A stretch of 64,000 nucleotides of DNA, from positions 64,001 to 128,000 of the IMG/VR virus record IMGVR_UViG_3300028591_000003. One strand, given 5' to 3'. Shown one piece after another: positions 1,404 to 20,793 of this stretch. Made by a program: the position numbers and the translations under genes. The notes beneath the pieces were generated by a model. The model did not search any database. It worked only from the letters and a program-made list of their open reading frames with translations, and was not told where the DNA came from. Position 1 is the first letter of the stretch, and every line of letters starts with the position of its first letter. Source of the DNA: a virus. Its lineage: Duplodnaviria > Caudoviricetes.

Positions 1404-1516
1404 AGAGATACTTTATAATAATCAATGCAGGATTTGAACCTGCTACTTCAATTTTAACAAAATTGCGCTCTATCCATATGAGCTAATCGATCAAAATCAG
1501 TGTTGTAAGTATCTCT
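1404..1516 (-). ncRNA. handle RNA enclosing a tRNA-Asn(GTT)-like body (1420-1492)
   Basis: AGAGATACTTACAACA...AGTATCTCT helix flanks a cloverleaf with CAATT-TTGTTAA-AATTG anticodon arm. Confidence 0.75.
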
Positions 1517-1735
1517 ATTCTCTAAAACAAATAGCTTCAAATAAAAAAGATGATGTTTACCAGACATCATCTGTTATTTACCAAAAATCTAGAATTTAGT
1601 AAACCTATTAGTTTTCGTCACGCAACCACTAACAAAACTCGTCTCTTCATATGGTCAAGAAATAACCCCGATTTCGCTCTTACATTGCTAAATCTAGTCA
1701 CAAATTCTGTTTTACATCTAGAATTAAGATGGGTG

Positions 1736-1807
1736 CGGTCTATGACGGTTACGATCCGTCCTCACTACTGTGACAGAGTAGTATCCTAACCAATGAACGA
1801 ATAGACC
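1736..1807 (-). tRNA. tRNA-Asp(GTC)
   Basis: GGTCTAT/ATAGACC acceptor, CTACT-CTGTCAC-AGTAG anticodon arm, G discriminator. Confidence 0.9.
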
Positions 1808-1813
1808 ATTATC

Positions 1814-2446
1814 TTATAGATTTATTAAACCTTTTTCTAACATTGCATGATGATTAGGGCATAGCCAAACTAAATTATTTTCATTATTTATTTCTTTAAT
1901 TAAAGTGTCTTCTGAAAATTCTAAAATTCCTTTTATATGATGTACTTCAAGTATTTCATCAAATTCATGATTTTTACAATAAGCACAAACTTTTTCTTTA
2001 TCAGATTTTTCTAATATTTTTCTTGCGTTTTTCCTAATTTCTCCACATTTAGTTGTGAGATATTTTTGTCCTGAAATATAATATCCTAAAGTTTTTTCTC
2101 CTATTGTTCCCCTTTTCTTGTTATAACATTCCAAACATATTTCAGAATGTACATCTTTAGGCTTTCCACATATAGGACAAATCTTATTAGGATTTTTTTC
2201 ATGTATATCTGTTCTGCCTTTGTTAAAGGTTTCAGATTCATTAATTATTCTTCTTCGAGGTAATTCAATTCCTAATTTTCTAGCAACTTTTTTAATATTA
2301 CTTCCAGAACAACCATATCTTCTACCTATTTCTTCATAACTGACTTTTTCTATATTTATAAGTCTTTCTAATTCTTCTTTTTCAGAATCCCATTTTGACA
2401 TATTTACAAACGAAGGGTTTTTAATCTTCGTACTATAAATATACAT
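1814..2446 (-). CDS. free-standing HNH endonuclease with N-terminal HTH and zinc fingers
   Basis: SYEEIGRRYGCSGSNIKK HTH; CPICG..CLEC; CAYC...LEVHHI...NLVWLCPNHH HNH motif. Confidence 0.9.
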   Translation of the reverse strand: MYIYSTKIKNPSFVNMSKWDSEKEELERLINIEKVSYEEIGRRYGCSGSNIKKVARKLGIELPRRRIINESETFNKGRTDIHEKNPNKICPICGKPKDVHSEICLECYNKKRGTIGEKTLGYYISGQKYLTTKCGEIRKNARKILEKSDKEKVCAYCKNHEFDEILEVHHIKGILEFSEDTLIKEINNENNLVWLCPNHHAMLEKGLINL

Positions 2447-2519
2447 TTTGAGTTCGAAAAATCAAACTTAAACTTATAAATTTAAGAAATTTTAACAATT
2501 ATAAAATAATACAATTTAG

Positions 2520-3094
2520 TACACCAGGTAGGATTCGAACCTACGACCTACTGCTTCATACTACTCTATGTTGCCATAGCCAAACAATGTCCTATTCTTA
2601 GACGATTAGATTTCCATCCTGCTAGGCATTTCACCACGCATTTTGTTTGTTGTAGTCTGGAATACATTATTACCATATTGAAATCCTTGCAAGTAACTAA
2701 GTCCGTTCATTCCCTTCTCATTTCCATCATTTCTGATTTCTCGGGTGTCTTCTTAGTAATTTCAATTTAGGTATCTCCTCTATACTCTCTACACGTTTAT
2801 AAGAAATAAGTGTCCACTCCTACAACACCTTTCGCTATATAAGCTAATGCTTCCATCATACAATACAATGGTATTTCTTAATTTAGCACGGTATTATCCT
2901 TACACATTATTGATTAGTGTTGTTAATCCTGTACTGATTTAACAGCTTAATGAGCGAATTGTTAACATCATTGCTCACACTCTTAGAAAAAGGACTTCCA
3001 CCGTTTTAGGGAGATTCTACATAGGACTTTCGTGCCCATGCATCCAATTTATTTATAGAAGGCAGTTGCTCTAATCCAGCTGAGCTACTGGTGC
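2520..3094 (-). tRNA. tRNA-Arg(TCT) split by a group I intron (exons 3094-3057 and 2556-2520)
   Basis: Joined exons give GCACCAG/CTGGTGT acceptor, ACTGC-CTTCT|AA-GCAGT anticodon arm and canonical T arm. Confidence 0.9.
2557..3056 (-). mobile_element. group I intron in tRNA-Arg(TCT), inserted after the anticodon, no ORF
   Basis: Exon ends in U, intron ends in G; core blocks (AATCTCC..AAA.CGGTGGAA.TCC, ATACCG.GC.AAAT, GTGTAGAGA, GGAGATACCTAA, CCAGAC.ACAAC) shared with the intron at 4356-4850. Confidence 0.85.
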
Positions 3095-3098
3095 TTAA

Positions 3099-3163
3099 AA
3101 AGATACTTATTTTTATAACCATCCTATATTTATGTTTTATTAAAAATAGTTGTAAGTATCTTT
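3099..3163 (-). ncRNA. handle RNA with non-tRNA payload
   Basis: AAAGATACTTACAAC...AAGTATCTTT terminal helix. Confidence 0.65.
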
Positions 3164-3229
3164 ATTAACTCTGGATTATCCAAAAACTCCTCTGTTAGGG
3201 AGAGGTGAGTTAATTACTCCAGTTAATAG

Positions 3230-3305
3230 TGGACCTGGAGGGGCATGATCCCTCAACCTTCTGGTTGCAAACCAGACGTTCTAGCCAAATTAGAACTACA
3301 AGCCC
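3230..3305 (-). tRNA. tRNA-Ala(TGC)
   Basis: TCTGG-TTTGCAA-CCAGA anticodon arm; G3:U70 pair present. Confidence 0.9.
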
Positions 3306-3312
3306 TTAAAAG

Positions 3313-3386
3313 TGCGATCACTGGGACTCGAACCCAGGCCACACGGATTAAAAATCCGTTGCTCTAGCCTACTGAGCTATGGTCGC
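3313..3386 (-). tRNA. tRNA-Lys(TTT)
   Basis: ACGGA-TTTTTAA-TCCGT anticodon arm, canonical D and T arms. Confidence 0.9.
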
Positions 3387-3589
3387 AACTACCCAAGTAA
3401 ATAAAATTTAAATAGTCATCCATTTTGTTTGCTTTGGGTACTACTAGTTTATACTAGGAATTTAATTGATTACTCTAGTTACTATGTGGTAATCTGGGTT
3501 ATTTTCCCTCTAACACGGATAGCTTTTAAGGTATTAACTATCAGAACTCCTTTTATTCTTTAACGAGTTCAAAGGCTTACTCGGACTAG

Positions 3590-3661
3590 TCATCGGTAAG
3601 GGAATTGAACCCTTCTTGGCAGGTTGAAAACCTGTAGTCCTAACCACTAGACGAACCGACG
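3590..3661 (-). tRNA. tRNA-Glu(TTC)
   Basis: CAGG-TTTTCAA-CCTG anticodon arm, CGTCGGT/ACCGATG acceptor. Confidence 0.88.
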
Positions 3662-3665
3662 ATAC

Positions 3666-3733
3666 AAGATACTTTCAACAACTAACCTAAACAATTTACA
3701 AACTATGAAAGTAATAAAAATTGTAAGTATCTT
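3666..3733 (-). ncRNA. handle RNA with non-tRNA payload
   Basis: AAGATACTTACAAT...AAGTATCTT terminal helix. Confidence 0.65.
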
Positions 3734-3759
3734 ATATTATAATTATGCCAAAAAAGGAG

Positions 3760-3830
3760 TTGCGGTCGTGTGATTCGAACACCGTTTCAAGGTTATGAGC
3801 CTTGCGAGCTACCATTGCTCCACCACCGCG
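3760..3830 (-). tRNA. tRNA-Met(CAT), initiator-like
   Basis: CGCGG 5' end with C1:A72 mismatch; CAAGG-CTCATAA-CCTTG anticodon arm; irregular T stem. Confidence 0.8.
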
Positions 3831-3837
3831 ATATTAA

Positions 3838-4016
3838 AAAAGAATATTTGACATTACATAACGCTCTATGTATTCAATTGTTATGTTCTAAGAGTAATTT
3901 CACTTGTGCACAACTTTATAGTTACTCTCACCGGGTATTATGAGGCTTGATTCGCGAAAAACCCATAACTCTAACGGCAGTCTTTACCTTAGTTAGAGGG
4001 TCTTAAATATTCTTTT
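3838..4016 (-). ncRNA. multi-hairpin structured RNA candidate
   Basis: 12-bp closing stem AAAAGAATATTT/AAATATTCTTTT around four 6-7 bp hairpins with large loops; strand assumed from neighbours. Confidence 0.55.
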
Positions 4017-4022
4017 ATGAGA

Positions 4023-4146
4023 AAGTTACTTAATAAATATTTGCATTAAACCACTATGCTAATCCGCAAACATGGAGCAGATAATGGATTCGAACCACTG
4101 ATACTTTTTTAAGTATAATATTTTTAACTAATATTGTAAGTAACTT
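4023..4146 (-). ncRNA. handle RNA with circularly permuted tRNA-like domain (YrlA-like topology)
   Basis: Order is handle 5', T arm (GTGG-TTCGAAT-CCAT), loop-closed acceptor (ATCTGC..GCGGAT), D arm (GCAT-AGTGGTTTA-ATGC), handle 3'. Confidence 0.75.
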
Positions 4147-4150
4147 ATAG

Positions 4151-4221
4151 TTGGAGATAGAGGAGTCGGACCTCTCTAATCAGGACCAAAATCTGAGGCA
4201 TTACCGCTATGCTAATCTCCA
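4151..4221 (-). tRNA. tRNA-Gln(TTG)
   Basis: TGGAGAT/ATCTCCA acceptor (U1-A72), TCAGA-TTTTGGT-CCTGA anticodon arm. Confidence 0.88.
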
Positions 4222-4303
4222 ATTTACTACTACTTTTCATCTCGTGAGTAGCCAACGAGTGTTAAAACAGTTTAAATAGTTTATTAATGTCATCACGACA
4301 TCG

Positions 4304-4884
4304 TACGACAGGCGGGGATCGAACCCGCAAGATCTCTACAGACCTGAGGGATTTTCTTACCACTCTATGTTACCATAGCCAAACAAACACATTTTGTCGT
4401 TTAAAGCCGAGCAAGTTCTTAACTTCCATCTGATTTCACCCTTCAAAGAAGTTAATGCAGGCTTTTGTTTGTTGTGGTCTGGACTGTCTCTTTACCATAT
4501 TGAAATTCTTGCAAGTTCGTGACTTATCTCTATATATTGAGGGTTATCAAAAACCATTTTCTTTTGTCCTTATAAATTTCAACTTAGGTATCTCCCGTTC
4601 AGTCTCTACACGATTATAAGAAAAATATTCCTAAGAATATGGGTTGGGAATCGAACCCAACTTTACGCACCCGTAGGTGCACAGGATACCATTACCTGCC
4701 TACACTTCTTATTTTCGCTCGGTATAGTCCTACACATTATTTGTTAGTGTACAGTATTGGATTAAATTATGCACTGCTTTCACCTCAAGGATTTCCACCG
4801 AATTTAGGAGATTCTACTATGGGATTTCTCGCCATAGCACTCAATTTTCTAAGTCCCTTGTGTACACCATTCCACCACTGTCGC
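4304..4884 (-). tRNA. tRNA-Leu(TAA) split by a group I intron (exons 4884-4851 and 4355-4304)
   Basis: Joined exons give AGGGA-CTT|AAAA-TCCCT anticodon arm, long variable arm, GCGACAG/CTGTCGT acceptor. Confidence 0.9.
4356..4850 (-). mobile_element. group I intron within the UAA anticodon of tRNA-Leu, no homing ORF
   Basis: Exon ACTT pairs with intron GAGT (P1 with U:G at the splice site); terminal G; core homologous to intron 2557-3056. Confidence 0.85.
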
Positions 4885-4886
4885 AT

Positions 4887-4968
4887 TTGAGATACTTAAA
4901 TTTATCTTTTACCAACACGTTGTTCCTATATTTATGTTTAATTAAATAAATATTTATAAGTATCTCAA
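4887..4968 (-). ncRNA. handle RNA with non-tRNA payload
   Basis: TTGAGATACTTATAA...AAGTATCTCAA helix; payload shares a 15-mer with 3099-3163. Confidence 0.65.
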
Positions 4969-5022
4969 GATGAACGTAAATAAATTTATTACTTAATTTT
5001 TAAAATCTATAGTTAAAAGATG

Positions 5023-5247
5023 TTAAATCAGTTTAGATAGATTCTGTTTTATGCTAGCGATTTCAGTCTTTAATCGTTCACATTCTTCATTATAACTACG
5101 TCCTTTATGATAGATAGTTCTACCATTTCGTGTTGAAGTCCAAGGTTTCTTGTCTTCACCAGCAGCTTTAAATTTTTCGTAAACTACTTCCAACCTTTGT
5201 AGTGCCATTCTTCTACGGACTACAATATTTCCTTTTCCTTTTGACAT
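5023..5247 (-). CDS. hypothetical basic protein
   Basis: 74-aa ORF in tandem run. Confidence 0.7.
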   Translation of the reverse strand: MSKGKGNIVVRRRMALQRLEVVYEKFKAAGEDKKPWTSTRNGRTIYHKGRSYNEECERLKTEIASIKQNLSKLI

Positions 5248-5250
5248 ATT

Positions 5251-5550
5251 TTAAAAATGTTTTGTTATTAATTTATAAGAATAGTTATCAAATTTTCTCA
5301 TACATTTAGATTCAAATTTAAAAACTTTCTTAATTTCTTCTTCACTCATTCTAACAGACATATGTACTCTGTAAAATTTATCCCAAGAAAAAAGTCTATG
5401 TTTTATGACTTTAAATTTAATATTGTATCCATTCTCTTTAAAAATATCTGGAATAGAGAAAAGCATTCTGTCTTTAATAGAGTAATTCGGATTAGTCCCG
5501 ATATAATCGTAATAATCCTGAACTGTAAAAGCAATTCTATATTTTTCCAT
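5251..5550 (-). CDS. hypothetical protein
   Basis: 99-aa ORF, start overlaps the upstream stop. Confidence 0.7.
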   Translation of the reverse strand: MEKYRIAFTVQDYYDYIGTNPNYSIKDRMLFSIPDIFKENGYNIKFKVIKHRLFSWDKFYRVHMSVRMSEEEIKKVFKFESKCMRKFDNYSYKLITKHF

Positions 5551-5798
5551 TAAATATATTCTATGATCGTTGTTACTTTTTTAATTTCTATAGTATATTC
5601 TATAATAGTATGAAAATAATCATTATCTGGATAAGTATCATATTTATACTTATGAGTTTTAATGATTTCTTCAATATCATCTTCTTTAGGATTTAGTTTT
5701 TCCCATAAAGGAGCAAATTGTTGTTTAAAATAACGATGTCTCCATAATTGGAAATTATCATCATTAATACATTTAACAAAATATTCAACTTTTTCCAT
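5550..5798 (-). CDS. hypothetical protein
   Basis: 82-aa ORF with AAACAAACAACAAACAAT leader as in other left-arm genes. Confidence 0.7.
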   Translation of the reverse strand: MEKVEYFVKCINDDNFQLWRHRYFKQQFAPLWEKLNPKEDDIEEIIKTHKYKYDTYPDNDYFHTIIEYTIEIKKVTTIIEYI

Positions 5799-6076
5799 AT
5801 TGTTTGTTGTTTGTTTAAAAATAAGAAGTGCGTTTCACAACGGACTTCTTTCTTGTAGATGAAAAGCCACTGCTTCTCCATAAATTTTAAAAATTTGAAT
5901 TAGTTCTATTATGATTTTCAATTACATTTTCAAAAAATTTTTCACTATCCTCACTTCCTTTAGAATCTAATCGCAGAACTTTCGACCTTAGAAGATATAC
6001 CAACGTACCCACCCAGGTTGAATAGGAAAACCACACTATTTTTAACGCGTATATTATTAGTGTGTAAAATAAATAG

Positions 6077-6209
6077 TCGGGGGACCAGGAATCGAACCTG
6101 GGACTTAGATTTATGAAATCCTTATTTTATTATGCTTTAAGATGTTGTAGGTATCAAAATGATACTAATGCTTTTATTTTCTTACATGTTACCACTACAC
6201 CATCCCCCA
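6077..6209 (-). ncRNA. tRNA-like RNA (CAT loop) with handle hairpin between D and anticodon arms
   Basis: GGGGGA/TCCCCC acceptor, D arm, insert with AGTATC-ATTTT-GATACCTACAACA, CCAGG-TTCGATT-CCTGG T arm. Confidence 0.7.
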
Positions 6210-6220
6210 TATAATAAATC

Positions 6221-6349
6221 GGAAGGAGAGTTGGACTCGAACCAACAACACTTTGTTTAATAGACAAATACTCTAACCTCTTGAATTTATTAAATTATAA
6301 GTAACTCACGAAATTACTAGAATCAATTTTTATGTTGAGTTATCCGGCC
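6221..6349 (-). ncRNA. tRNA-like RNA (ATT loop) with handle hairpin in the D loop; degenerate acceptor
   Basis: ACTC/GAGT D stem encloses AGTAAT..GTTACTTATAAT; TTTGT-CTATTAA-ACAAA arm; GTTGG-TTCGAGT-CCAAC T arm. Confidence 0.65.
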
Positions 6350-6353
6350 AATT

Positions 6354-6495
6354 TAATCCAAACTCTGTACAGAAACAGTTTCTTTCTTCATTATAGGTGC
6401 GTGTTATCCTAATTTTTACAGATTCAATGAAACTACCTACGTTTAGTTACATTATATCTGACCGCCAATTTCAATATCGCTGTTAGTTTGGATTA
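6354..6495 (-). ncRNA. handle-variant RNA with multi-hairpin payload
   Basis: TAATCCAAACTAACAGC...AGTTTGGATTA: 11-bp helix ending in ACT/AGT followed by AACAGC. Confidence 0.5.
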
Positions 6496-6496
6496 G

Positions 6497-6613
6497 TGGA
6501 GGGAGCAGGAATCGAACCTACATTATAGTCATTTTACGCATGATTAGAAATTTACTATGATTGAATGGTAAGTATCATATGATACTCGTCGTTACCAATA
6601 TTTCAATCCCTCC
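6497..6613 (-). ncRNA. tRNA-Tyr-like RNA (GTA loop) with handle hairpin in the D loop
   Basis: GGAGGGA/TCCCTCC acceptor; AGTATC-ATAT-GATACTTACCA insert; GTAGG-TTCGATT-CCTGC T arm. Confidence 0.7.
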
Positions 6614-6688
6614 AAATTAAAATTAGTAATCTATCTTCACAGACCAATTACTACTGTCAAACCTTAAAAAACATAACAAATTATGCAG

Positions 6689-6806
6689 CGGGGAGTACAA
6701 GAGTCGAACTTGCACTTCTGGAAAATCCCAGAAATTATGAAAGATGTTTTTGTAAGTAATAATTTACTACTCAACATAATCGGGCTTAACCATGCCCAAA
6801 CTCCCC
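6689..6806 (-). ncRNA. tRNA-like RNA with handle replacing the anticodon loop; long variable arm
   Basis: GGGGAGT/ACTCCCC acceptor, GGGC/GCCC D stem, ATTATG/CATAAT stem enclosing AGTAGT..ATTACTTACAAA, TTCTGG/CCAGAA variable arm, T arm. Confidence 0.7.
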
Positions 6807-6810
6807 TAAT

Positions 6811-6916
6811 TAAGATACTAGAAAATACATCTTGGAATCGAACCAAGTACACTCGGCGTTACGGCTGATGCTCTAACCAAATGAGCTAATGTGGTTATAT
6901 TATTGTAAGTATCTTA
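6811..6916 (-). ncRNA. handle RNA enclosing a degenerate tRNA body
   Basis: TAAGATACTTACAAT...AGTATCTTA around GCTC/GAGC D arm and CTTGG-TTCGATT-CCAAG T arm. Confidence 0.7.
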
Positions 6917-6974
6917 TTCGTCTCAAATAAAGAAATTATGATGCAGTTTTTCTTTTATCTGATGCACATCTAAA

Positions 6975-7367
6975 TCATTTTATACTATCATTTTTATTAA
7001 TAGACCAACTATCTACCCATTTGTCTAAAGCTTTTATACATTTATCTGGAAGTTGTTTTGCAGTTGGATTTGATTTAACATAATCAATAGTTCCACCAAC
7101 TCCATAAATAAGAAGTGCTTGATTTGTTGTAGGAATAAATATTTCTCCTAGACAGCAAACAAAGAAAATAGGTATTGTAAACCTAAGAATTTTAATTGAC
7201 AATTTTTGATACATTTTGTATTCAGTACGTTGGTCCTCAACTTCATTGCAATAGTTTACTAAATATACTATAAAAAATGCTATAGAAAGAATAATACTAG
7301 TAACAAGGAATATTGTTAAAACAGTACTGATTGAATCAAATCTTGTAATCCAATAAATTTCATTCAT
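6975..7367 (-). CDS. membrane protein, hypothetical
   Basis: 130 aa with two hydrophobic helices. Confidence 0.8.
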   Translation of the reverse strand: MNEIYWITRFDSISTVLTIFLVTSIILSIAFFIVYLVNYCNEVEDQRTEYKMYQKLSIKILRFTIPIFFVCCLGEIFIPTTNQALLIYGVGGTIDYVKSNPTAKQLPDKCIKALDKWVDSWSINKNDSIK

Positions 7368-7386
7368 ATTATTAAATTTGTTTAAA

Positions 7387-7452
7387 AGGATACTAAAAAT
7401 GTCCCAATTAAAAGTTAGGTGCTTACTAGCAATTTAGTATTATAAGTATCCT
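7387..7452 (-). ncRNA. handle RNA with short non-tRNA payload
   Basis: AGGATACTTATAATA...AGTATCCT helix. Confidence 0.6.
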
Positions 7453-7483
7453 ATTTATTATGAAAGTAATTATTATAAAGTAA

Positions 7484-7604
7484 AAGTTACTTAGTAAAAA
7501 ACGTTGCTCTAAACCAAGCTGAGCTATCCCGAAACCCTCAGGAGTTGGATTTGAACCAACGACACACGGCTTACAAAGCTGATTCTTGATATTGTAAGTA
7601 ACTT
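7484..7604 (-). ncRNA. handle RNA with circularly permuted tRNA-Thr(TGT)-like domain
   Basis: Order is handle 5', anticodon-like arm (TTTGTAA), T arm, loop-closed acceptor (TCCTGA..TCGGGA), D arm (GCTC/GAGC), handle 3'. Confidence 0.75.
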
Positions 7605-7661
7605 AATTAGAAACTAGAGGAGGAATCGAACCTCCTCTAGTCGTGATGCTTATTAAAAAAA

Positions 7662-9521
7662 TCAAAGGGTATTTGCTCTCACGAGTTCATACCTATTGCT
7701 TCTATAGAGACTCAACAGTGGAGTATAGACATCAAAGACATCCATATCCTTGAAGTTAGTCAGGAATTGCTCAATCATTGCTGGATTCGAAGGTATGTAC
7801 ATCATGTTGTCAATTCCACTAAATCGGTCTGCTCCAGCACTAGCACGAGAGCCAACAGCACCAGTAACATCCATAAGGATTACGTAAGGACGGAATCCAA
7901 AGAACCCCTCACACTGACGGAAGAAATCGTTCATACTCGCCTCTGGTGAATACATATTATTGAACATACCATCAGACATGATTGTCCATACAGGATAGTT
8001 ACGAAGAGCATCCTTAATCTCAGGATTTGCCTGACAAGCCTGGTTCAATCCCTTAGGAATACATGAAATATCAGTATTCCATCCCTGGAACTTACTTTGA
8101 AGGAAAGCAGAAATCCTCTTGTAATTATCCAGGAAACTAAGTTTAGGATCAACGAATGGTTGTGCCTTAGTCTTAGCTACCTTACTTCTTAAGATTGAGT
8201 TCTGAGATGTAGCCTGAGAATCAATGTAAGAATAGAAACGAGATGTTCCATCAAACATACCAACGAGATTACGAGCATCATCATCGGGATTCTTAACCAT
8301 ACATACTGCAGTAATAAAGGCAGCAAATCTGAATGGTGTACCACTCATAGAACCAGAACTGTCAATAATGGTCAGTGAATTATAAGGAAGATTAACCTTA
8401 TTCATAAAGGACTCAATCTTCAACTTATCAATTGTGCCACTAAGAATCTGGTTGTAGAGTTCAGTAAAGTTAGTAGCACCAATTGTTACCTTGGCCTCTT
8501 TCTTCACTTTCTCCAATTTAACCTTATCCTCCTCACTAGCCTGACCTTGACGAACCTTCTCTTCCAGAATACGTTGTTCTTGTTGCTTCTGCTCCTTATA
8601 AGTTTCCCATTCCTTGATCCAAGGCTGGAACTTAGCCCACTTAGATACTTCTGCAATAGCTACATTAGACTTTCCATCCAATCCAGCTGTCTCACAGTCT
8701 GCACCTACTACCTTGGAATAGAGGATTCTGTTCTTAACCCTGAACCTAGCCTGAGATGGGAGCTTGTCAAACCAGTCGATGAATTGCTGCTTGTCAAACT
8801 CATTTATCTTGCCAGTAGAGAAAAGTACAGATTCAAGAGAGCCATTGTACTGCTTTCGCCACTCACGATAACCCTTAAAATATTCCAGTTCCCATCCCAT
8901 CATCTTAGAGAGTTCAGTTAAGAAGTTCTTTTTCTCATTCATTACCTGAATAGTCTCAGGAAGAACTCTCTTATGACCTTGACGCTTACTGGTTCTTGGG
9001 ATAGTCAAGAACTTGGCAATCAATGTCTTATTGAACGGATTAGAACCGTTAATCACAGCATATGTATAGTCAAGAAGAGCCTTCACATACTCTTTATCTT
9101 GAAATGCATGATATATTTTCAGTACCTTCGAACCCTTAGTTTGAACTCGATTACGGAACAAAACATCAAAGCATGTATACTCATTAAAGAGTTGTGCATT
9201 TAAAAACTTGATGAATTGTTTCTTATCTTTTTTCCAAAGCCAGGTTGTGATAGTATAGAAAGCCTCACGATTGGCATTACCACCACTGTCAACCTTCTTC
9301 TTTTTAAAGATGTTGTGCTGACGATTAGTAATGTCTCCAATAGAGAACAGGATTGAGAAGAAAAGTTCTCTCTTTTCTTTAGAGTTCTTTACTTCAAGCC
9401 ATGCATCATTCAGAAGAACCTCTGAAATAACTGCATCAGTTGATGCCTGCTGAAGTTGCAGACATCTGCGAAGTCCGTAAAACGGATTGTTACTTTTTTT
9501 ATTAAGTTCTACTTGTACCAT
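7662..9521 (-). CDS. TROVE/Ro60-like (DUF2828-type) helical protein with C-terminal VWA domain
   Basis: MIDAS DSSGSMSG, NTD and IMSDGMFN motifs; N-terminal blocks (GDI..GG..NREAF, IAKFL, YREWRK, DKLPSQA) recall DUF2828/TROVE; family call from memory. Confidence 0.7.
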   Translation of the reverse strand: MVQVELNKKSNNPFYGLRRCLQLQQASTDAVISEVLLNDAWLEVKNSKEKRELFFSILFSIGDITNRQHNIFKKKKVDSGGNANREAFYTITTWLWKKDKKQFIKFLNAQLFNEYTCFDVLFRNRVQTKGSKVLKIYHAFQDKEYVKALLDYTYAVINGSNPFNKTLIAKFLTIPRTSKRQGHKRVLPETIQVMNEKKNFLTELSKMMGWELEYFKGYREWRKQYNGSLESVLFSTGKINEFDKQQFIDWFDKLPSQARFRVKNRILYSKVVGADCETAGLDGKSNVAIAEVSKWAKFQPWIKEWETYKEQKQQEQRILEEKVRQGQASEEDKVKLEKVKKEAKVTIGATNFTELYNQILSGTIDKLKIESFMNKVNLPYNSLTIIDSSGSMSGTPFRFAAFITAVCMVKNPDDDARNLVGMFDGTSRFYSYIDSQATSQNSILRSKVAKTKAQPFVDPKLSFLDNYKRISAFLQSKFQGWNTDISCIPKGLNQACQANPEIKDALRNYPVWTIMSDGMFNNMYSPEASMNDFFRQCEGFFGFRPYVILMDVTGAVGSRASAGADRFSGIDNMMYIPSNPAMIEQFLTNFKDMDVFDVYTPLLSLYRSNRYELVRANTL

Positions 9522-9992
9522 TGTTTTAAATTTATTATTTGTAAGTAACTAATTAAATAAATTTCCTACATCTGTTTTATAGCAATTAACTCGTTCAATC
9601 TACTAAAGAGATTCTACTAAAGTGCAGATTCTCACTGCTTTTCTATTTTACAGTCTCCATCACGTTGCTTTACGTATCACAATGACCTCAATCACATGTT
9701 TGCCACTACAAGGTCTTTCAACTGTCAATTCAGTATGCCCATTGAAGGTTCAATATTGGAATTCCCTTCAGCCCTCGGAAATTTATTATAAATTAAAATA
9801 CTATCTAACGCTATAAACGCAGGAGTTGGCAACACCCTTTTCTCCCTAGCATAAGTTAATATGCCTCCAATTCGACCAATAGATAGTATTTTATCTGAAA
9901 AAGAGTGGCTTCGAGCGGTTTTATCTCTACTTCACCCGCGCTATAGTTTCCGCACACGTGGTTCCGGTATCAAGCTTCACTCTTATTCTTGT

Positions 9993-10430
9993 TTAGTTGA
10001 ACTCTTCCGTAGAATCCATAGCAGCAAGCTCTGCCTCCATCTCCTTAATACGATCCTCAGGAGTTTTGGTGGACTCTTTAAGTTCAGCGAGCTTCTCAGT
10101 AAGCTCTGCCTTCTTACGGCGACTCTCTGCGAGTTCAAGATGGTAGCGCTTGAAACCTACAATGAGATTTACAAGTTCCTTCATCTCCTTGAGAGAATCG
10201 AGTTCAGTAGTGTTAACTTCTACCCATTCATCCTTGTTCTCAAGATTCTGAATCTTAGTTGAAAGACCAGCCTTGATATTGTTCAGGGTGTTAATACTTG
10301 TTGTGTGAATCAACTCTACAATGTTAAGTGGAGCACCCATTTTAGTAGAGATTGTACTGTTTGTCATGAGCATCTTAAGAGCAAGCTCACACATCTTGCT
10401 GTAATGCTCTTTTGTGAAATTTATTTTCAT
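9993..10430 (-). CDS. coiled-coil hypothetical protein
   Basis: 145-aa ORF with heptad-rich C-terminus. Confidence 0.8.
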   Translation of the reverse strand: MKINFTKEHYSKMCELALKMLMTNSTISTKMGAPLNIVELIHTTSINTLNNIKAGLSTKIQNLENKDEWVEVNTTELDSLKEMKELVNLIVGFKRYHLELAESRRKKAELTEKLAELKESTKTPEDRIKEMEAELAAMDSTEEFN

Positions 10431-20700: not shown

Positions 20701-20776
20701 TGGGGCGTAGTCGAGCGGCTTCAGACTGGAGACTCTAAATCTCTGCATTACGCGGGTTCGAATCCTGCCACCCCAA
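20701..20776 (+). tRNA. amber suppressor tRNA (CUA anticodon), Gln-type acceptor
   Basis: GGAGA-CTCTAAA-TCTCT anticodon arm; U1-A72, G2-C71, G3-C70; GCGGG-TTCGAAT-CCTGC T arm. Confidence 0.93.
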
Positions 20777-20793
20777 CTAGACGTAAATGAATT

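What the first reader, a model, noticed from the sequence alone, without database searches (positions are those of the whole stretch)
1404..9550. Candidate new RNP system: TROVE/Ro60-like VWA protein plus about 13 RNAs sharing one handle helix
Seen: the minus-strand motif R(A/U)UACUUAYAA paired with AGUA(U/A)Y recurs at 1404-1516, 3099-3163, 3666-3733, 4023-4146, 4887-4968, 6077-6209, 6221-6349, 6497-6613, 6689-6806, 6811-6916, 7387-7452 and 7484-7604, with a variant at 6354-6495. The helix covaries (GAUACU/AGUAUC vs GUUACU/AGUAAC) while the unpaired UAYAA is kept. All copies lie downstream of, and on the same strand as, the 619-aa VWA gene. Known: bacterial Ro60 binds the terminal helix of Y RNAs, and YrlA RNAs carry tRNA-like modules. 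Inference: the protein binds the handle and displays interchangeable RNA payloads. The handle is not the canonical Ro60 bulged-C helix.
Basis: partly seen in the sequence, partly recalled or inferred. Interest (0 to 1): 0.95.

Follow-up and report, generated by a model that had tools for sequence, protein, structure and literature searches.

The report
Phage Ro60-like protein, handle-tagged tRNA mimics
A 176-kb gut or rumen phage encodes a protein that folds like the RNA-binding ring Ro60, followed by a dozen small RNAs that share one short "handle" attached to whole tRNAs, scrambled tRNAs or bare anticodon arms; the handle also sits in the gene's own leader, which points to an undescribed relative of the Ro60/Y-RNA particle.

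Summary
Twelve minus-strand RNAs between 1404 and 7604, plus a thirteenth copy in the 5' leader of the 619-aa gene, share an 8-bp helix (NNGWUACU paired with AGUAWCNN) followed by unpaired UAYAA.

- **Helix:** about 470 unique copies from about 90 related loci show covariation at four flanking positions and in the core (UACU/AGUA versus CACU/AGUG).
- **Non-member:** the "variant" at 6354-6495 has no handle.
- **Protein:** it has no Pfam, NCBIfam or PDB sequence match. Its full-length AlphaFold model hits Ro60/Rsr first, with an invariant MIDAS motif. The N-terminal half alone matches only generic helical repeats, so TROVE membership is inconclusive.
- **Co-occurrence:** gene and handle RNAs occur together in every locus with enough flank, down to 38% protein identity.
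- **Leader copy:** the leader carries a handle in all 77 loci.
- **Payloads:** whole tRNAs, YrlA-type permuted tRNA bodies, tRNA bodies with the handle as an internal hairpin, and a class showing a tRNA-Lys(UUU) anticodon arm.
- **Second partner:** a conserved 145-aa gene always accompanies the system and could equally be the handle binder.

Binding, expression and function are inferred. I found no published description. Earlier notes of this scan report similar pairings on other DNA. Verdict: a new variant of the Ro60/Y-RNA kind, of high interest.

The parts
9993..10430 (-). Conserved 145-aa gene of unknown function (helical, coiled-coil C-terminus) directly upstream of the Ro60-like gene. 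It is a possible second protein of the system.
   Evidence: Found upstream on the same strand in 35 of 37 loci longer than 12 kb. A 32%-identical homologue (E 2e-21) is present in the distant locus L082. No Pfam, PDB or NCBIfam assignment; the atlas gives only unnamed viral clusters.
9885..9990 (-). Conserved structured RNA element between the two genes. It has a closing stem AAGAGUG/CACUCUU, a second stem, a variable hairpin, an invariant GAAGUAGAGAU stretch and a U-run. Its role is unknown; an attenuator or small RNA is possible.
   Evidence: Alignment A5 of 17 loci with near-invariant blocks and a GAGUG/CACUC to GACUG/CAGUC swap. No Rfam match.
9489..9549 (-). Handle copy in the mRNA leader. 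GUUACUUACAA lies 18 nt before the AUG and can pair with AGUAAC in codons 10-11, enclosing the ribosome-binding region and start codon.
   Evidence: The motif lies 18-53 nt upstream of the ATG in 77 of 77 loci. The partner inside the coding sequence changes with the flank: UGU..ACA 16, CGU..ACG 12, AGU..ACU 15. In the window itself the helix is only 6-7 bp and the fold is not better than shuffles.
7662..9521 (-). 619-aa Ro60-like protein: N-terminal helical-repeat half and C-terminal VWA domain with MIDAS motif D387-x-S389-x-S391, T483, D517.
   Evidence: AlphaFold model pLDDT 86.6, pTM 0.83. Foldseek and VIA place Ro60/Rsr/phage Ro60 first over the full length. MIDAS residues are invariant in 55 homologues. 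No in-frame TAG, although late genes are TAG-recoded.
7610..7640 (-). T-arm-like hairpin just after the stop codon: 10-bp stem with a UUCGAUU loop. It is a possible terminator or tRNA-type processing site.
   Evidence: 36-59 nt are 95-100% identical in most of 19 loci whose proteins are only about 60-65% identical. Listed as terminator-like.
7484..7604 (-). Open-handle RNA with a YrlA-type permuted tRNA body: anticodon-like arm, T arm, loop-closed acceptor stem, D arm.
   Evidence: Rfam YrlA 39 bits, E 1e-6. Alignment A4 of 16 such RNAs: 97.8% of cells paired against 78.9% shuffled, 15 of 25 pairs with compensatory changes, 0 of 500 shuffles as good.
7387..7452 (-). Open-handle RNA displaying a tRNA-Lys(UUU)-type anticodon stem-loop: 5-bp stem and a CUUUUAA loop.
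   Evidence: Alignment A6 of 13 RNAs shows an invariant loop and a covarying 5-bp stem and handle. This arm is found in 11 of 91 short payloads against 1.1 expected.
6811..6916 (-). Open handle extending the acceptor stem of a tRNA-like body that has an abnormal anticodon loop.
   Evidence: Rfam tRNA 34.5 bits. The minimum-energy fold is closed by the handle.
6689..6806 (-). tRNA-like body with a long variable arm. The handle is a closed hairpin inside the enlarged anticodon loop.
   Evidence: Sequence and fold, z -5.6. Closed handles make up 28% of copies across loci against 2.9% by chance.
6497..6613 (-). tRNA-like body with the closed handle hairpin after the D region (variant UUACCA).
6221..6349 (-). 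tRNA-like body (Asn-type anticodon arm, T arm) with the closed handle hairpin in the D region.
   Evidence: Rfam tRNA partial match, 34.2 bits. Counterparts in other loci, for example L009 and L028.
6077..6209 (-). tRNA-like body with the closed handle hairpin between the D and T regions (variant CCUACAA).
4887..4968 (-). Open-handle RNA with a short non-tRNA payload, ending 3 nt before the 5' end of an insert-bearing tRNA-Leu(UAG) gene.
   Evidence: 10-bp helix. Fold z -3.9. Payload family shared with 3099-3163 and other loci.
4023..4146 (-). Open-handle RNA with a permuted tRNA body. It starts directly after tRNA-Gln.
   Evidence: Member of alignment A4. Fold.
3666..3733 (-). Open-handle RNA with a short payload, ending directly before tRNA-Glu.
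   Evidence: Helix of 11 bp or more. Fold z -4.3. Related copy in L028.
3099..3163 (-). Open-handle RNA with a short payload, ending about 5 nt before an insert-bearing tRNA-Arg(UCU) gene.
1404..1516 (-). Open handle caging an intact tRNA-Asn(GUU). It ends just before tRNA-Val.
   Evidence: ARAGORN and Rfam tRNA, 58.9 bits. 9-bp helix. Across loci, 50 of 227 open handles enclose an ARAGORN tRNA.

Best explanation
This is a phage ribonucleoprotein system of the Ro60/Y-RNA type.

**Proposed mechanism**
- The 619-aa protein, perhaps together with the conserved 145-aa protein, binds the shared handle: an 8-bp helix plus the adjoining unpaired UACAA.
- The handle is carried by a family of phage RNAs whose bodies imitate tRNA or parts of it: whole tRNAs, L-shaped permuted bodies, or a bare tRNA-Lys anticodon arm.
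- The RNAs are made from one or a few long transcripts that start at the gene. They are released by the host's tRNA-processing enzymes at the interleaved tRNAs and tRNA-like acceptor stems.
- The particles then present tRNA look-alikes to host proteins that recognise tRNA. They act either as decoys (for example against anticodon nucleases) or as tethers, as Y RNA tethers Ro60 to PNPase.
- Free protein binds the handle in its own leader and lowers its own translation.

**Shown here**
- The handle as an RNA helix.
- The tRNA-like payloads.
- The Ro60-like fold of the whole protein.
- The strict co-occurrence of gene and handle RNAs.
- The handle copy in the leader.

**Inferred**
- Binding of the protein to the handle.
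- Processing of the transcripts.
- Autoregulation.
- The decoy or tether role.
For: Handle:
- It is a covarying RNA helix on the gene strand, with G-U but no A-C pairs.
- It occurs both as an open terminal stem and, in reversed strand order, as a closed hairpin inside tRNA bodies. This fits an RNA module, not a DNA signal.
- It is confined to this locus in the complete genome.

Co-occurrence with the gene:
- 80 metagenome loci at 59-81% identity.
- L082 at 38% identity, where the array lies on the other side of the gene.
- L208 and L209 at 51% and 59% identity.
- Of the seven IMG/VR loci with four or more same-strand motif copies that lie in the family's arrays, six hold the gene within the locus and the seventh (L139) holds it elsewhere in its record.

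Leader copy:
- Present in 77 of 77 loci, with flank-dependent partners around the start codon.

Protein:
- Full-length fold matches are to Ro60, Rsr and phage phiLo Ro60.
- MIDAS residues are invariant.
- The PDB profile search lists the TROVE and Ro60 VWA regions among its best weak hits.

Payloads:
- YrlA-type topology with strong covariation.
- Lys anticodon-arm class.
- 136 of 227 non-leader open handles carry a T loop.
- 50 enclose a real tRNA.

Processing:
- tRNA 5' ends sit 4-10 nt after the helix in 36 cases, with none at 13-30 nt.
- Strong terminators are seen only at the far end of the array.

Precedent:
- Phage phiLo Ro60 binds two adjacent Y-like RNAs and host PNPase (PMC12135203).
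- YrlA RNAs lie next to Ro60 in more than 250 bacteria and phages (PMC4201824).
Against: - No experiment or expression data.
- The protein matches no TROVE, DUF2828 or other Pfam model.
- Its N-terminal half alone matches only generic HEAT/ARM solenoids, Z 6.9 or less.
- The canonical Ro60-binding sequence is absent.
- The 145-aa protein co-occurs equally well and could be the binder.
- Most related loci come from related phages, so part of the synteny is inherited rather than independent.
- The leader helix in the window is weak: 6-7 bp, fold z -0.3.
- No RtcB or RNA ligase is present in the genome, unlike the bacterial rsr-rtcBA context.
Confidence: 0.55

Rival explanations
1. The handle is bound by another factor, most plausibly the conserved 145-aa protein encoded just upstream, or a host protein. 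The Ro60-like protein would then act on the RNAs in another way, for example by threading their ends through its ring as Ro60 does with misfolded RNAs, or it would do something unrelated.
For: The 145-aa gene is next to the Ro60-like gene in 35 of 37 long loci and is kept in the distant L082. The leader handle lies exactly between the two genes. The Ro60-like protein lacks the canonical Y-RNA recognition context.
Against: The 145-aa protein has no recognisable RNA-binding domain. The Ro60 precedent places the RNA partner on the ring protein (PMC4201824, PMC12135203).
Confidence: 0.15
2. The handle is mainly a processing or stability signal of the phage tRNA operon. On this reading it is a leader-trailer stem with a sequence tag that guides or blocks RNases, so that tRNAs and neighbouring RNAs are cut out or protected. 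Its proximity to the VWA gene would be operon history rather than a specific ribonucleoprotein.
For: The handles are interleaved with tRNAs at fixed spacing: 4-5 nt before tRNA 5' ends and 1-5 nt after 3' ends. 50 handles cage real tRNAs. The array seems co-transcribed.
Against: This does not explain closed handle hairpins grafted inside tRNA bodies, the invariant UACAA, the Lys anticodon-arm class, or the handle in the leader of one particular gene in 77 of 77 loci. Most phage tRNA arrays have no such stems.
Confidence: 0.15
3. The handle marks splice or permutation junctions, in the way the archaeal and algal bulge-helix-bulge motif does. Cutting at the base of the helix and ligation would turn intron-bearing and permuted genes into working tRNAs.
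For: The same helix is found around tRNAs, inside tRNA bodies at several positions, and at the ends of permuted tRNA bodies. One of these (4023-4146) has a CCA-like sequence after the acceptor 3' strand. This mirrors the three contexts of bulge-helix-bulge junctions (established knowledge).
Against: 91 of 227 payloads have no tRNA features. Several permuted bodies lack an anticodon arm altogether. Removing the closed hairpins does not leave a 7-nt anticodon loop, as seen by reading 6689-6806. No RNA ligase or RtcB is present in the genome. The geometry is a plain 8-bp helix without the two 3-nt bulges.
Confidence: 0.07
4. The repeat acts at the DNA level, as a promoter of each small gene or as the terminal inverted repeat of a small mobile element that has spread through the tRNA region.
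For: The motif contains a TACAAT or TATAAT-like hexamer and lies at the 5' edge of each unit and of the gene. The two arms are inverted repeats.
Against: G-U pairs are tolerated and A-C pairs are not. All copies lie on one strand. Closed hairpins occur inside tRNA bodies. There is no excess of sigma-70-type promoters: 37 found against 36 expected. The motif is absent upstream of other genes in the 176-kb genome. No target-site duplications were noticed.
Confidence: 0.03

Closest known systems
Ro60 (Rsr) with YrlA-type Y RNAs of bacteria and phages (Rfam RF02553; Chen et al. 2014, PMC4201824)
   Same: - A helical-repeat plus VWA(MIDAS) protein is encoded next to small RNAs whose 5' and 3' ends form a stem with a conserved tag.
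- The body of these RNAs is a tRNA mimic with a T arm, a loop-closed acceptor stem and a D arm in that order.
- One RNA here scores as YrlA, below threshold.
   Different: - The protein is not detected by the TROVE model.
- The tag is G-W-UACU-UACAA, not GNCGAAN0-1G.
- There are 3 to about 18 RNAs per locus instead of 1-4.
- Payloads include whole tRNAs, bare anticodon arms and non-tRNA bodies.
- The handle also appears as an internal hairpin and in the gene's own leader.
- There is a constant 145-aa partner gene and no rtcBA.
Thermus phage phiLo Ro60 with Yrl1 and Yrl2 (PDB 9KOP, 9L5Y; PMC12135203)
   Same: A phage-encoded Ro60-fold protein with adjacent Y-like RNAs. It is a structural hit of the model (Z 10.9, 322 residues aligned). 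It is proposed to act on a host RNA enzyme.
   Different: phiLo Ro60 is a recognisable TROVE protein with two RNAs carrying the CGAA motif. Binding and PNPase interaction were shown there by experiment; nothing has been tested here.
DUF2828 / DUF7788 proteins (Pfam PF11443, PF25043)
   Same: The nearest named clusters in the protein atlas are viral proteins of similar length. PF11443 is carried by 10% and 27% of members of two of them, and PF25043 by 57% of one.
   Different: No HMM match for the window protein, and only 1 of 55 homologues touches DUF7788, weakly. The family has no described function.
Class I RNAs of Dictyostelium (Kjellin et al. 2021, PMC7919456)
   Same: The architecture matches: RNAs of about 60 nt with a short covarying stem joining the 5' and 3' ends, a conserved unpaired motif right after the 5' strand, and a variable remainder. 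From my own memory, not verified in the text, their 11-nt motif contains CUUACA, as the handle here does.
   Different: They are eukaryotic and have their own promoters. The known binder is an RRM protein (Rnp1A). No Rfam match here. The sequence likeness was not tested with a tool.

Membership tests
Ro60 / TROVE proteins (Pfam PF05731) | Match to the TROVE profile | tested here: not met
   No Pfam hit for the protein even at E 10. None in 55 homologues. No TROVE match in the whole genome, while the controls D. radiodurans and B. thetaiotaomicron do match.
Ro60 / TROVE proteins (Pfam PF05731) | Helical-repeat ring followed by a C-terminal VWA domain (overall fold) | tested here: inconclusive
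   Full-length model: Foldseek's top 12 are all Ro60/TROVE, E 1e-5 to 7e-4, with TM only 0.3-0.48. VIA gives 2nvo Z 12.2 with 383 aligned, 1yvp Z 12.0 with 313, and 9l5y Z 10.9 with 322, against about 160-190 aligned for VWA-only hits. The N-terminal half alone gives only generic solenoids, Z 6.9 or less, with Ro60 not listed.
Ro60 / TROVE proteins (Pfam PF05731) | MIDAS motif DxSxS...T...D in the VWA domain | tested here: met
   D387, S389, S391, T483 and D517 are invariant in 55 homologues.
Ro60 / TROVE proteins (Pfam PF05731) | Binds Y RNA through a conserved stem motif | not testable with these tools
   Only co-occurrence and the leader copy are available.
YrlA Y RNA (Rfam RF02553) | Score at or above the gathering threshold (69 bits) | tested here: not met
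   39 bits, E 1e-6, over the full model for 7472-7590. Not listed at gathering threshold.
YrlA Y RNA (Rfam RF02553) | tRNA-like domain in the order T arm, loop-closed acceptor stem, D arm, inside a terminal stem | tested here: met
   Consensus structure of 16 RNAs: 97.8% of cells paired, 15 of 25 pairs with compensatory changes, 0 of 500 shuffles as good.
YrlA Y RNA (Rfam RF02553) | Rsr-binding motif GNCGAAN0-1G in the 5' strand of the stem (PMC4201824) | tested here: not met
   The 5' strand reads G-W-UACU-UACAA in all copies.
DUF2828 / DUF7788 | Match to PF11443 or PF25043 | tested here: not met
   No hit for the window protein. One weak DUF7788 hit among 55 homologues. The atlas neighbours are only a lead.
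tRNA (Rfam RF00005), for the caged copies | Cloverleaf scoring above 29 bits with a normal anticodon loop | tested here: met
   1419-1492 scores 58.9 bits as tRNA-Asn(GUU). 6823-6895 reaches 34.5 bits but has an abnormal anticodon loop.
Dictyostelium Class I RNA | Short terminal stem, conserved unpaired motif after the 5' strand, variable body of about 60 nt | tested here: inconclusive
   The architecture matches the description in PMC7919456. No Rfam family matched the short handle RNAs. The motif sequences were not compared with a tool (one search found no printed motif).

The most novel reading that the evidence does not exclude
The handle is a universal loading tag. A Ro60-fold ring protein, with its 145-aa partner, loads a library of tRNA-part decoys: a Lys anticodon arm, L-shaped bodies and caged whole tRNAs. 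The phage uses this library to disarm host tRNA-cleaving defence nucleases or to capture tRNA-processing enzymes. On this reading the orphan DUF2828-like proteins of phages and eukaryotes, and orphan stem-plus-motif RNAs such as the Dictyostelium Class I RNAs, belong to the same ancient protein-RNA partnership.
Probability: 0.2. Interest if true: 0.9.

Novelty: new variant of a known kind. Interest (0 to 1): 0.78.

Why it matters
- **Scale:** Ro60/Y-RNA particles are known from animals, bacteria and a few phages, usually with one to four RNAs and an unclear role. Here a divergent and so far unannotated protein family pairs with large arrays of RNAs. The family counts 1262 clusters at 90% identity, 156 clusters at 50%, and 159 metagenome loci, many on gut and rumen phage contigs of about 100-180 kb.
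- **Design:** the arrays make the modular logic explicit: one constant handle and interchangeable tRNA-shaped payloads.
- **Open question:** this gives a directly testable answer to what the tRNA-like domain of Y RNAs is for.
- **Unexplained sequence:** it also accounts for much non-coding sequence inside phage tRNA regions.
- **Function:** it suggests a new kind of phage counter-measure, or host take-over, aimed at tRNA-recognising proteins.
- **Practical use:** the handle is short and well defined, so it can also serve as a search key for more such systems.

Tried and rejected
- **Promoter reading:** rejected. There is no promoter excess, the motif is absent from other genes of the genome, and closed hairpins lie inside tRNA bodies.
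- **Mobile-element inverted repeat:** rejected, because the G-U tolerance is strand-specific.
- **Bulge-helix-bulge-like splicing:** considered, and kept only as a weak rival (see rivals).
- **Sequence searches of the protein:** Pfam, PHROGs, NCBIfam and PDB gave nothing useful. tblastn against 50,697 GenBank phages found no match.
- **N-terminal domain alone:** folding and searching it gave no Ro60 hit.
- **The search for related loci:** four distant homologues found nothing in IMG/VR, and the 55-sequence alignment was too diverse to scan with.
- **Gapped handle pattern in IMG/VR:** it returned mostly single chance hits; only multi-copy loci were informative.
- **RtcB and RNA ligase:** absent from the genome.
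- **The roughly 500-nt inserts in two tRNA genes:** no Rfam intron model matches them, even at E 10.
- **Anticodon census of handle-bearing tRNA bodies:** many identities and no single target.
- **Literature searches:** searches for crAss plus TROVE, DUF2828, YrlA, and Ro60 plus phage found no description of this system.

Full report
**Setting.** The window is bases 64001-128000 of a complete 176,443-bp virus record with direct terminal repeats. It is AT-rich, about 30% G+C. Its late genes are TAG-recoded: reading TAG as Gln opens terminase, portal and tail genes, and a tRNA(CUA) lies at 20701-20777. The terminase is about 28% identical to those of crAss-like phages. The finding lies in the standard-code part of the genome, on the minus strand.

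**The observation.**
- Exact TACTTAYAA occurs 16 times in the window against 4.3 expected, and 11 copies lie on the minus strand between 1503 and 9547.
- In the whole genome, 11 of 20 exact matches fall in this 8-kb stretch; the rest equal background.
- Eight copies have the complementary AGUAW 42-103 nt downstream and form a helix of 8 bp or more that closes the minimum-energy fold.
- Four copies have the same helix in reversed strand order as a short hairpin, AGUAW-loop-WUACUUAYAA, inside tRNA-like bodies.
- The element at 6354-6495 has an 11-bp terminal stem but no handle, so I do not count it.
- A thirteenth copy lies 18 nt upstream of the start codon of the 619-aa gene.

**Is the helix real?** I collected the following related loci:
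- 80 metagenome loci whose protein is 59-81% identical.
- One IMG/VR locus at 38% identity (L082).
- Two contigs binned with bacterial genomes, at 51% and 59% identity.
- Seven IMG/VR loci found through the motif.

The tests on these loci gave:
- Of 472 unique copies, 67% have a downstream partner of 7 bp or more, against 11% in shuffles.
- When the partner is chosen without using the tested position, pairing holds at -1 (91% against 48% expected; A-U 106, U-A 58, C-G 8, G-C 7, U-G 9), at -3 (89% against 66%) and at -4 (67% against 44%). It stops at -5 (28% against 29%).
- The core covaries as well: CACU pairs with AGUG or GGUG in 66 unique copies, against one uncompensated copy.
- G-U pairs are present at -1 to -3 and A-C pairs are absent.
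- Every copy is on the gene strand.
- Closed hairpin forms make up 28% of copies against 2.9% by chance.

The handle is therefore an RNA module: an 8-bp helix, NNGWUACU paired with AGUAWCNN, whose 5' strand runs on into a nearly invariant UACAA.

**The payloads.** Of 284 open handles, 57 are the gene's leader, 136 hold a T loop, and 91 are short, with a median of 47 nt.
- **Caged tRNAs:** 50 handles enclose a tRNA that ARAGORN accepts. In the window this is tRNA-Asn(GUU) at 1418-1493.
- **Permuted tRNA bodies:** sixteen RNAs, including 7484-7604 and 4023-4146, have a T arm, a loop-closed acceptor stem and a D arm in that order. In their alignment 97.8% of cells pair against 78.9% in shuffles, 15 of 25 pairs show compensatory changes, and no shuffle or slid register comes close. 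This is the topology of YrlA. Rfam's YrlA model matches 7472-7590 over its full length at 39 bits, E 1e-6, below the gathering score of 69.
- **Lys anticodon arm:** It is found in 11 of 91 short payloads against 1.1 expected, includes 7387-7452, and is often the first RNA after the gene.
- **Anticodon identities:** the tRNA-like bodies carry many different anticodons, so the payloads really are interchangeable.

**The protein.**
- It has no Pfam, PHROG function, NCBIfam or PDB sequence match.
- It has 1262 relatives among 90% clusters and 156 among 50% clusters, almost all unnamed.
- A profile of 55 homologues gives weak PDB hits in which the TROVE and Ro60 VWA regions rank second to fifth.
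- The MIDAS residues D387, S389, S391, T483 and D517 are invariant.
- The AlphaFold model is confident: pLDDT 86.6, pTM 0.83.
- Foldseek's first twelve PDB hits are all Ro60/TROVE chains aligned over the full length, E 1e-5 to 7e-4. VWA-only hits start at E 1e-3.
- The independent aligner puts D. radiodurans Rsr first (Z 12.2, 383 residues, rmsd 5.8). Xenopus Ro60 follows (Z 12.0, 313), then phage phiLo Ro60 (Z 10.9, 322). VWA-only chains align 160-190 residues.
- Against this, TM-scores are low (0.3-0.48). The N-terminal half modelled alone (pLDDT 75) matches only generic HEAT/ARM/MIF4G solenoids (Z 6.9 or less; Foldseek E 0.07 or more), with no Ro60 in the lists.
- The protein atlas places it next to viral clusters that partly carry DUF2828 and DUF7788, but the HMMs do not match.

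I therefore call the protein Ro60-like in architecture and leave TROVE membership open.

**Linkage of gene and RNAs.**
- Every locus with enough flank has handle RNAs next to the gene, of either the UACU or the CACU type.
- In L082 (38% identity) the array lies upstream of the gene instead of downstream, with the same motif.
- L208 and L209 also carry it.
- Of the seven IMG/VR loci that belong to the family's arrays, all with four or more same-strand copies, six hold the gene within the locus. The seventh (L139) holds it elsewhere in its 179-kb record.
- The motif sits 18-53 nt before the ATG in 77 of 77 loci.
- A complementary AGUAAC, or a variant of it, lies inside the first 25 codons, and its 3' flank follows the 5' flank: UGU with ACA 16 times, CGU with ACG 12, AGU with ACU 15. 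These groups are partly clades, so this covariation is suggestive rather than strong.
- A 145-aa gene of unknown function lies directly upstream in 35 of 37 long loci and is kept, at 32% identity, in L082. It belongs to the system and is an alternative handle binder.

**How it probably works.**
- Strong terminator-like hairpins on the minus strand are seen only at 1572-1548 and 1312-1277, and sigma-70-type promoters are not enriched. The gene and the array are therefore probably co-transcribed.
- Handle RNAs abut tRNAs at fixed distances. A tRNA 5' end follows the helix by 4-10 nt in 36 cases, with none at 13-30 nt. A tRNA 3' end precedes the helix by 1-5 nt in 16 cases.
- The closed-handle forms have their own acceptor stems.
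- I infer that RNase P and the 3' tRNA-processing enzymes release the RNAs.
- By analogy with Ro60/Y RNA (PMC4201824), and with phage phiLo Ro60, which binds two adjacent Y-like RNAs and host PNPase (PMC12135203), I propose the following. The ring protein binds the handle. The tRNA-shaped payloads engage host tRNA-recognising proteins as decoys or tethers. The leader handle gives feedback control.
- The Lys anticodon-arm class makes an anticodon-directed target plausible, but this is inference.

**Comparison with what is known.**
- The system works like Ro60 with YrlA, but it fails two sequence-level membership tests: the TROVE profile, and the YrlA threshold together with the Rsr-binding motif.
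- It differs in scale (up to about 18 RNAs), in the new handle, in the permuted grafts, in the caged real tRNAs, in the leader copy and in the extra protein.
- The architecture of the short handle RNAs also matches the published description of Dictyostelium Class I RNAs: a terminal stem, a conserved unpaired motif after the 5' strand, and a variable body of about 60 nt (PMC7919456). The sequence likeness rests on my memory and on earlier notes of this scan, not on a test.
- I found no paper describing this phage system.
- Earlier notes of this scan report comparable pairings of a Ro60-like protein with handle RNAs in other phage genomes. The kind has therefore been seen before by the scan on other DNA, though with other handle sequences in most cases.

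**Limits.**
- There are no expression or binding data.
- Many loci are related by descent.
- The host is unknown. The two binned contigs named Clostridium and Cellulosilyticum are short and may be mis-binned.

Noticed in passing
window 9885-9990 (-): A conserved structured RNA lies between the 145-aa gene and the Ro60-like gene. It has near-invariant blocks (AAGAGUGAAGCUUGAUACCGG ... GAAGUAGAGAUAAAACCGCUCGAAGCCACUCUU), a variable central hairpin, one compensatory swap in the closing stem and a U-run. It matches no Rfam family. It could be an attenuator or another small RNA of the system.
   Followed up: partly
window 2520-3094 (-) and 4304-4884 (-): Two tRNA genes, Arg(UCU) and Leu(UAG), are each interrupted in the anticodon loop by an insert of about 470-490 nt. 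The inserts share blocks with each other and with many related loci, yet match no Rfam group I or II intron model even at E 10. Each is preceded within 3-5 nt by a short handle RNA with a shared payload (AAACAUAAAUAUAGGA).
   Followed up: partly
window 6354-6495 (-): A structured RNA with an 11-bp terminal stem and no handle motif (fold z -2.9). It is conserved in several related loci, directly upstream of the D-region-handle tRNA-like RNA.
   Followed up: partly
window 7610-7640 (-): A T-arm-like hairpin (10-bp stem, UUCGAUU loop) follows the stop codon directly. It is 95-100% identical in most of 19 loci whose proteins are only about 60-65% identical, so it is far more conserved than the coding sequence.
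   Followed up: partly
window 19000-64000 (+) and 20701-20777 (+): The late structural genes (terminase, portal, tail proteins) are open only if TAG is read as an amino acid, and a tRNA with anticodon CUA lies at 20701-20777. The Ro60-like gene and its neighbours use the standard code.
   Followed up: partly
window 1814-2446 (-): An HNH endonuclease gene sits inside the tRNA and handle-RNA array, next to the insert-bearing tRNA-Arg gene. It is present in only 4 of 37 long related loci and may be a homing endonuclease.
   Followed up: no
window 6975-7367 (-): A 130-aa ORF (phrog_3878, unknown function, hydrophobic N-terminal part) is embedded in the RNA array. It is found in only 6 of 37 long related loci.
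   Followed up: no
window 9550-9800 (-): The 3' part of the long intergenic region upstream of the leader handle is 80-96% identical in a subset of loci (L013, L023, L057/L058, L006) and missing in most others, where the gap is only 40-100 nt. It may be an inserted element.
   Followed up: no
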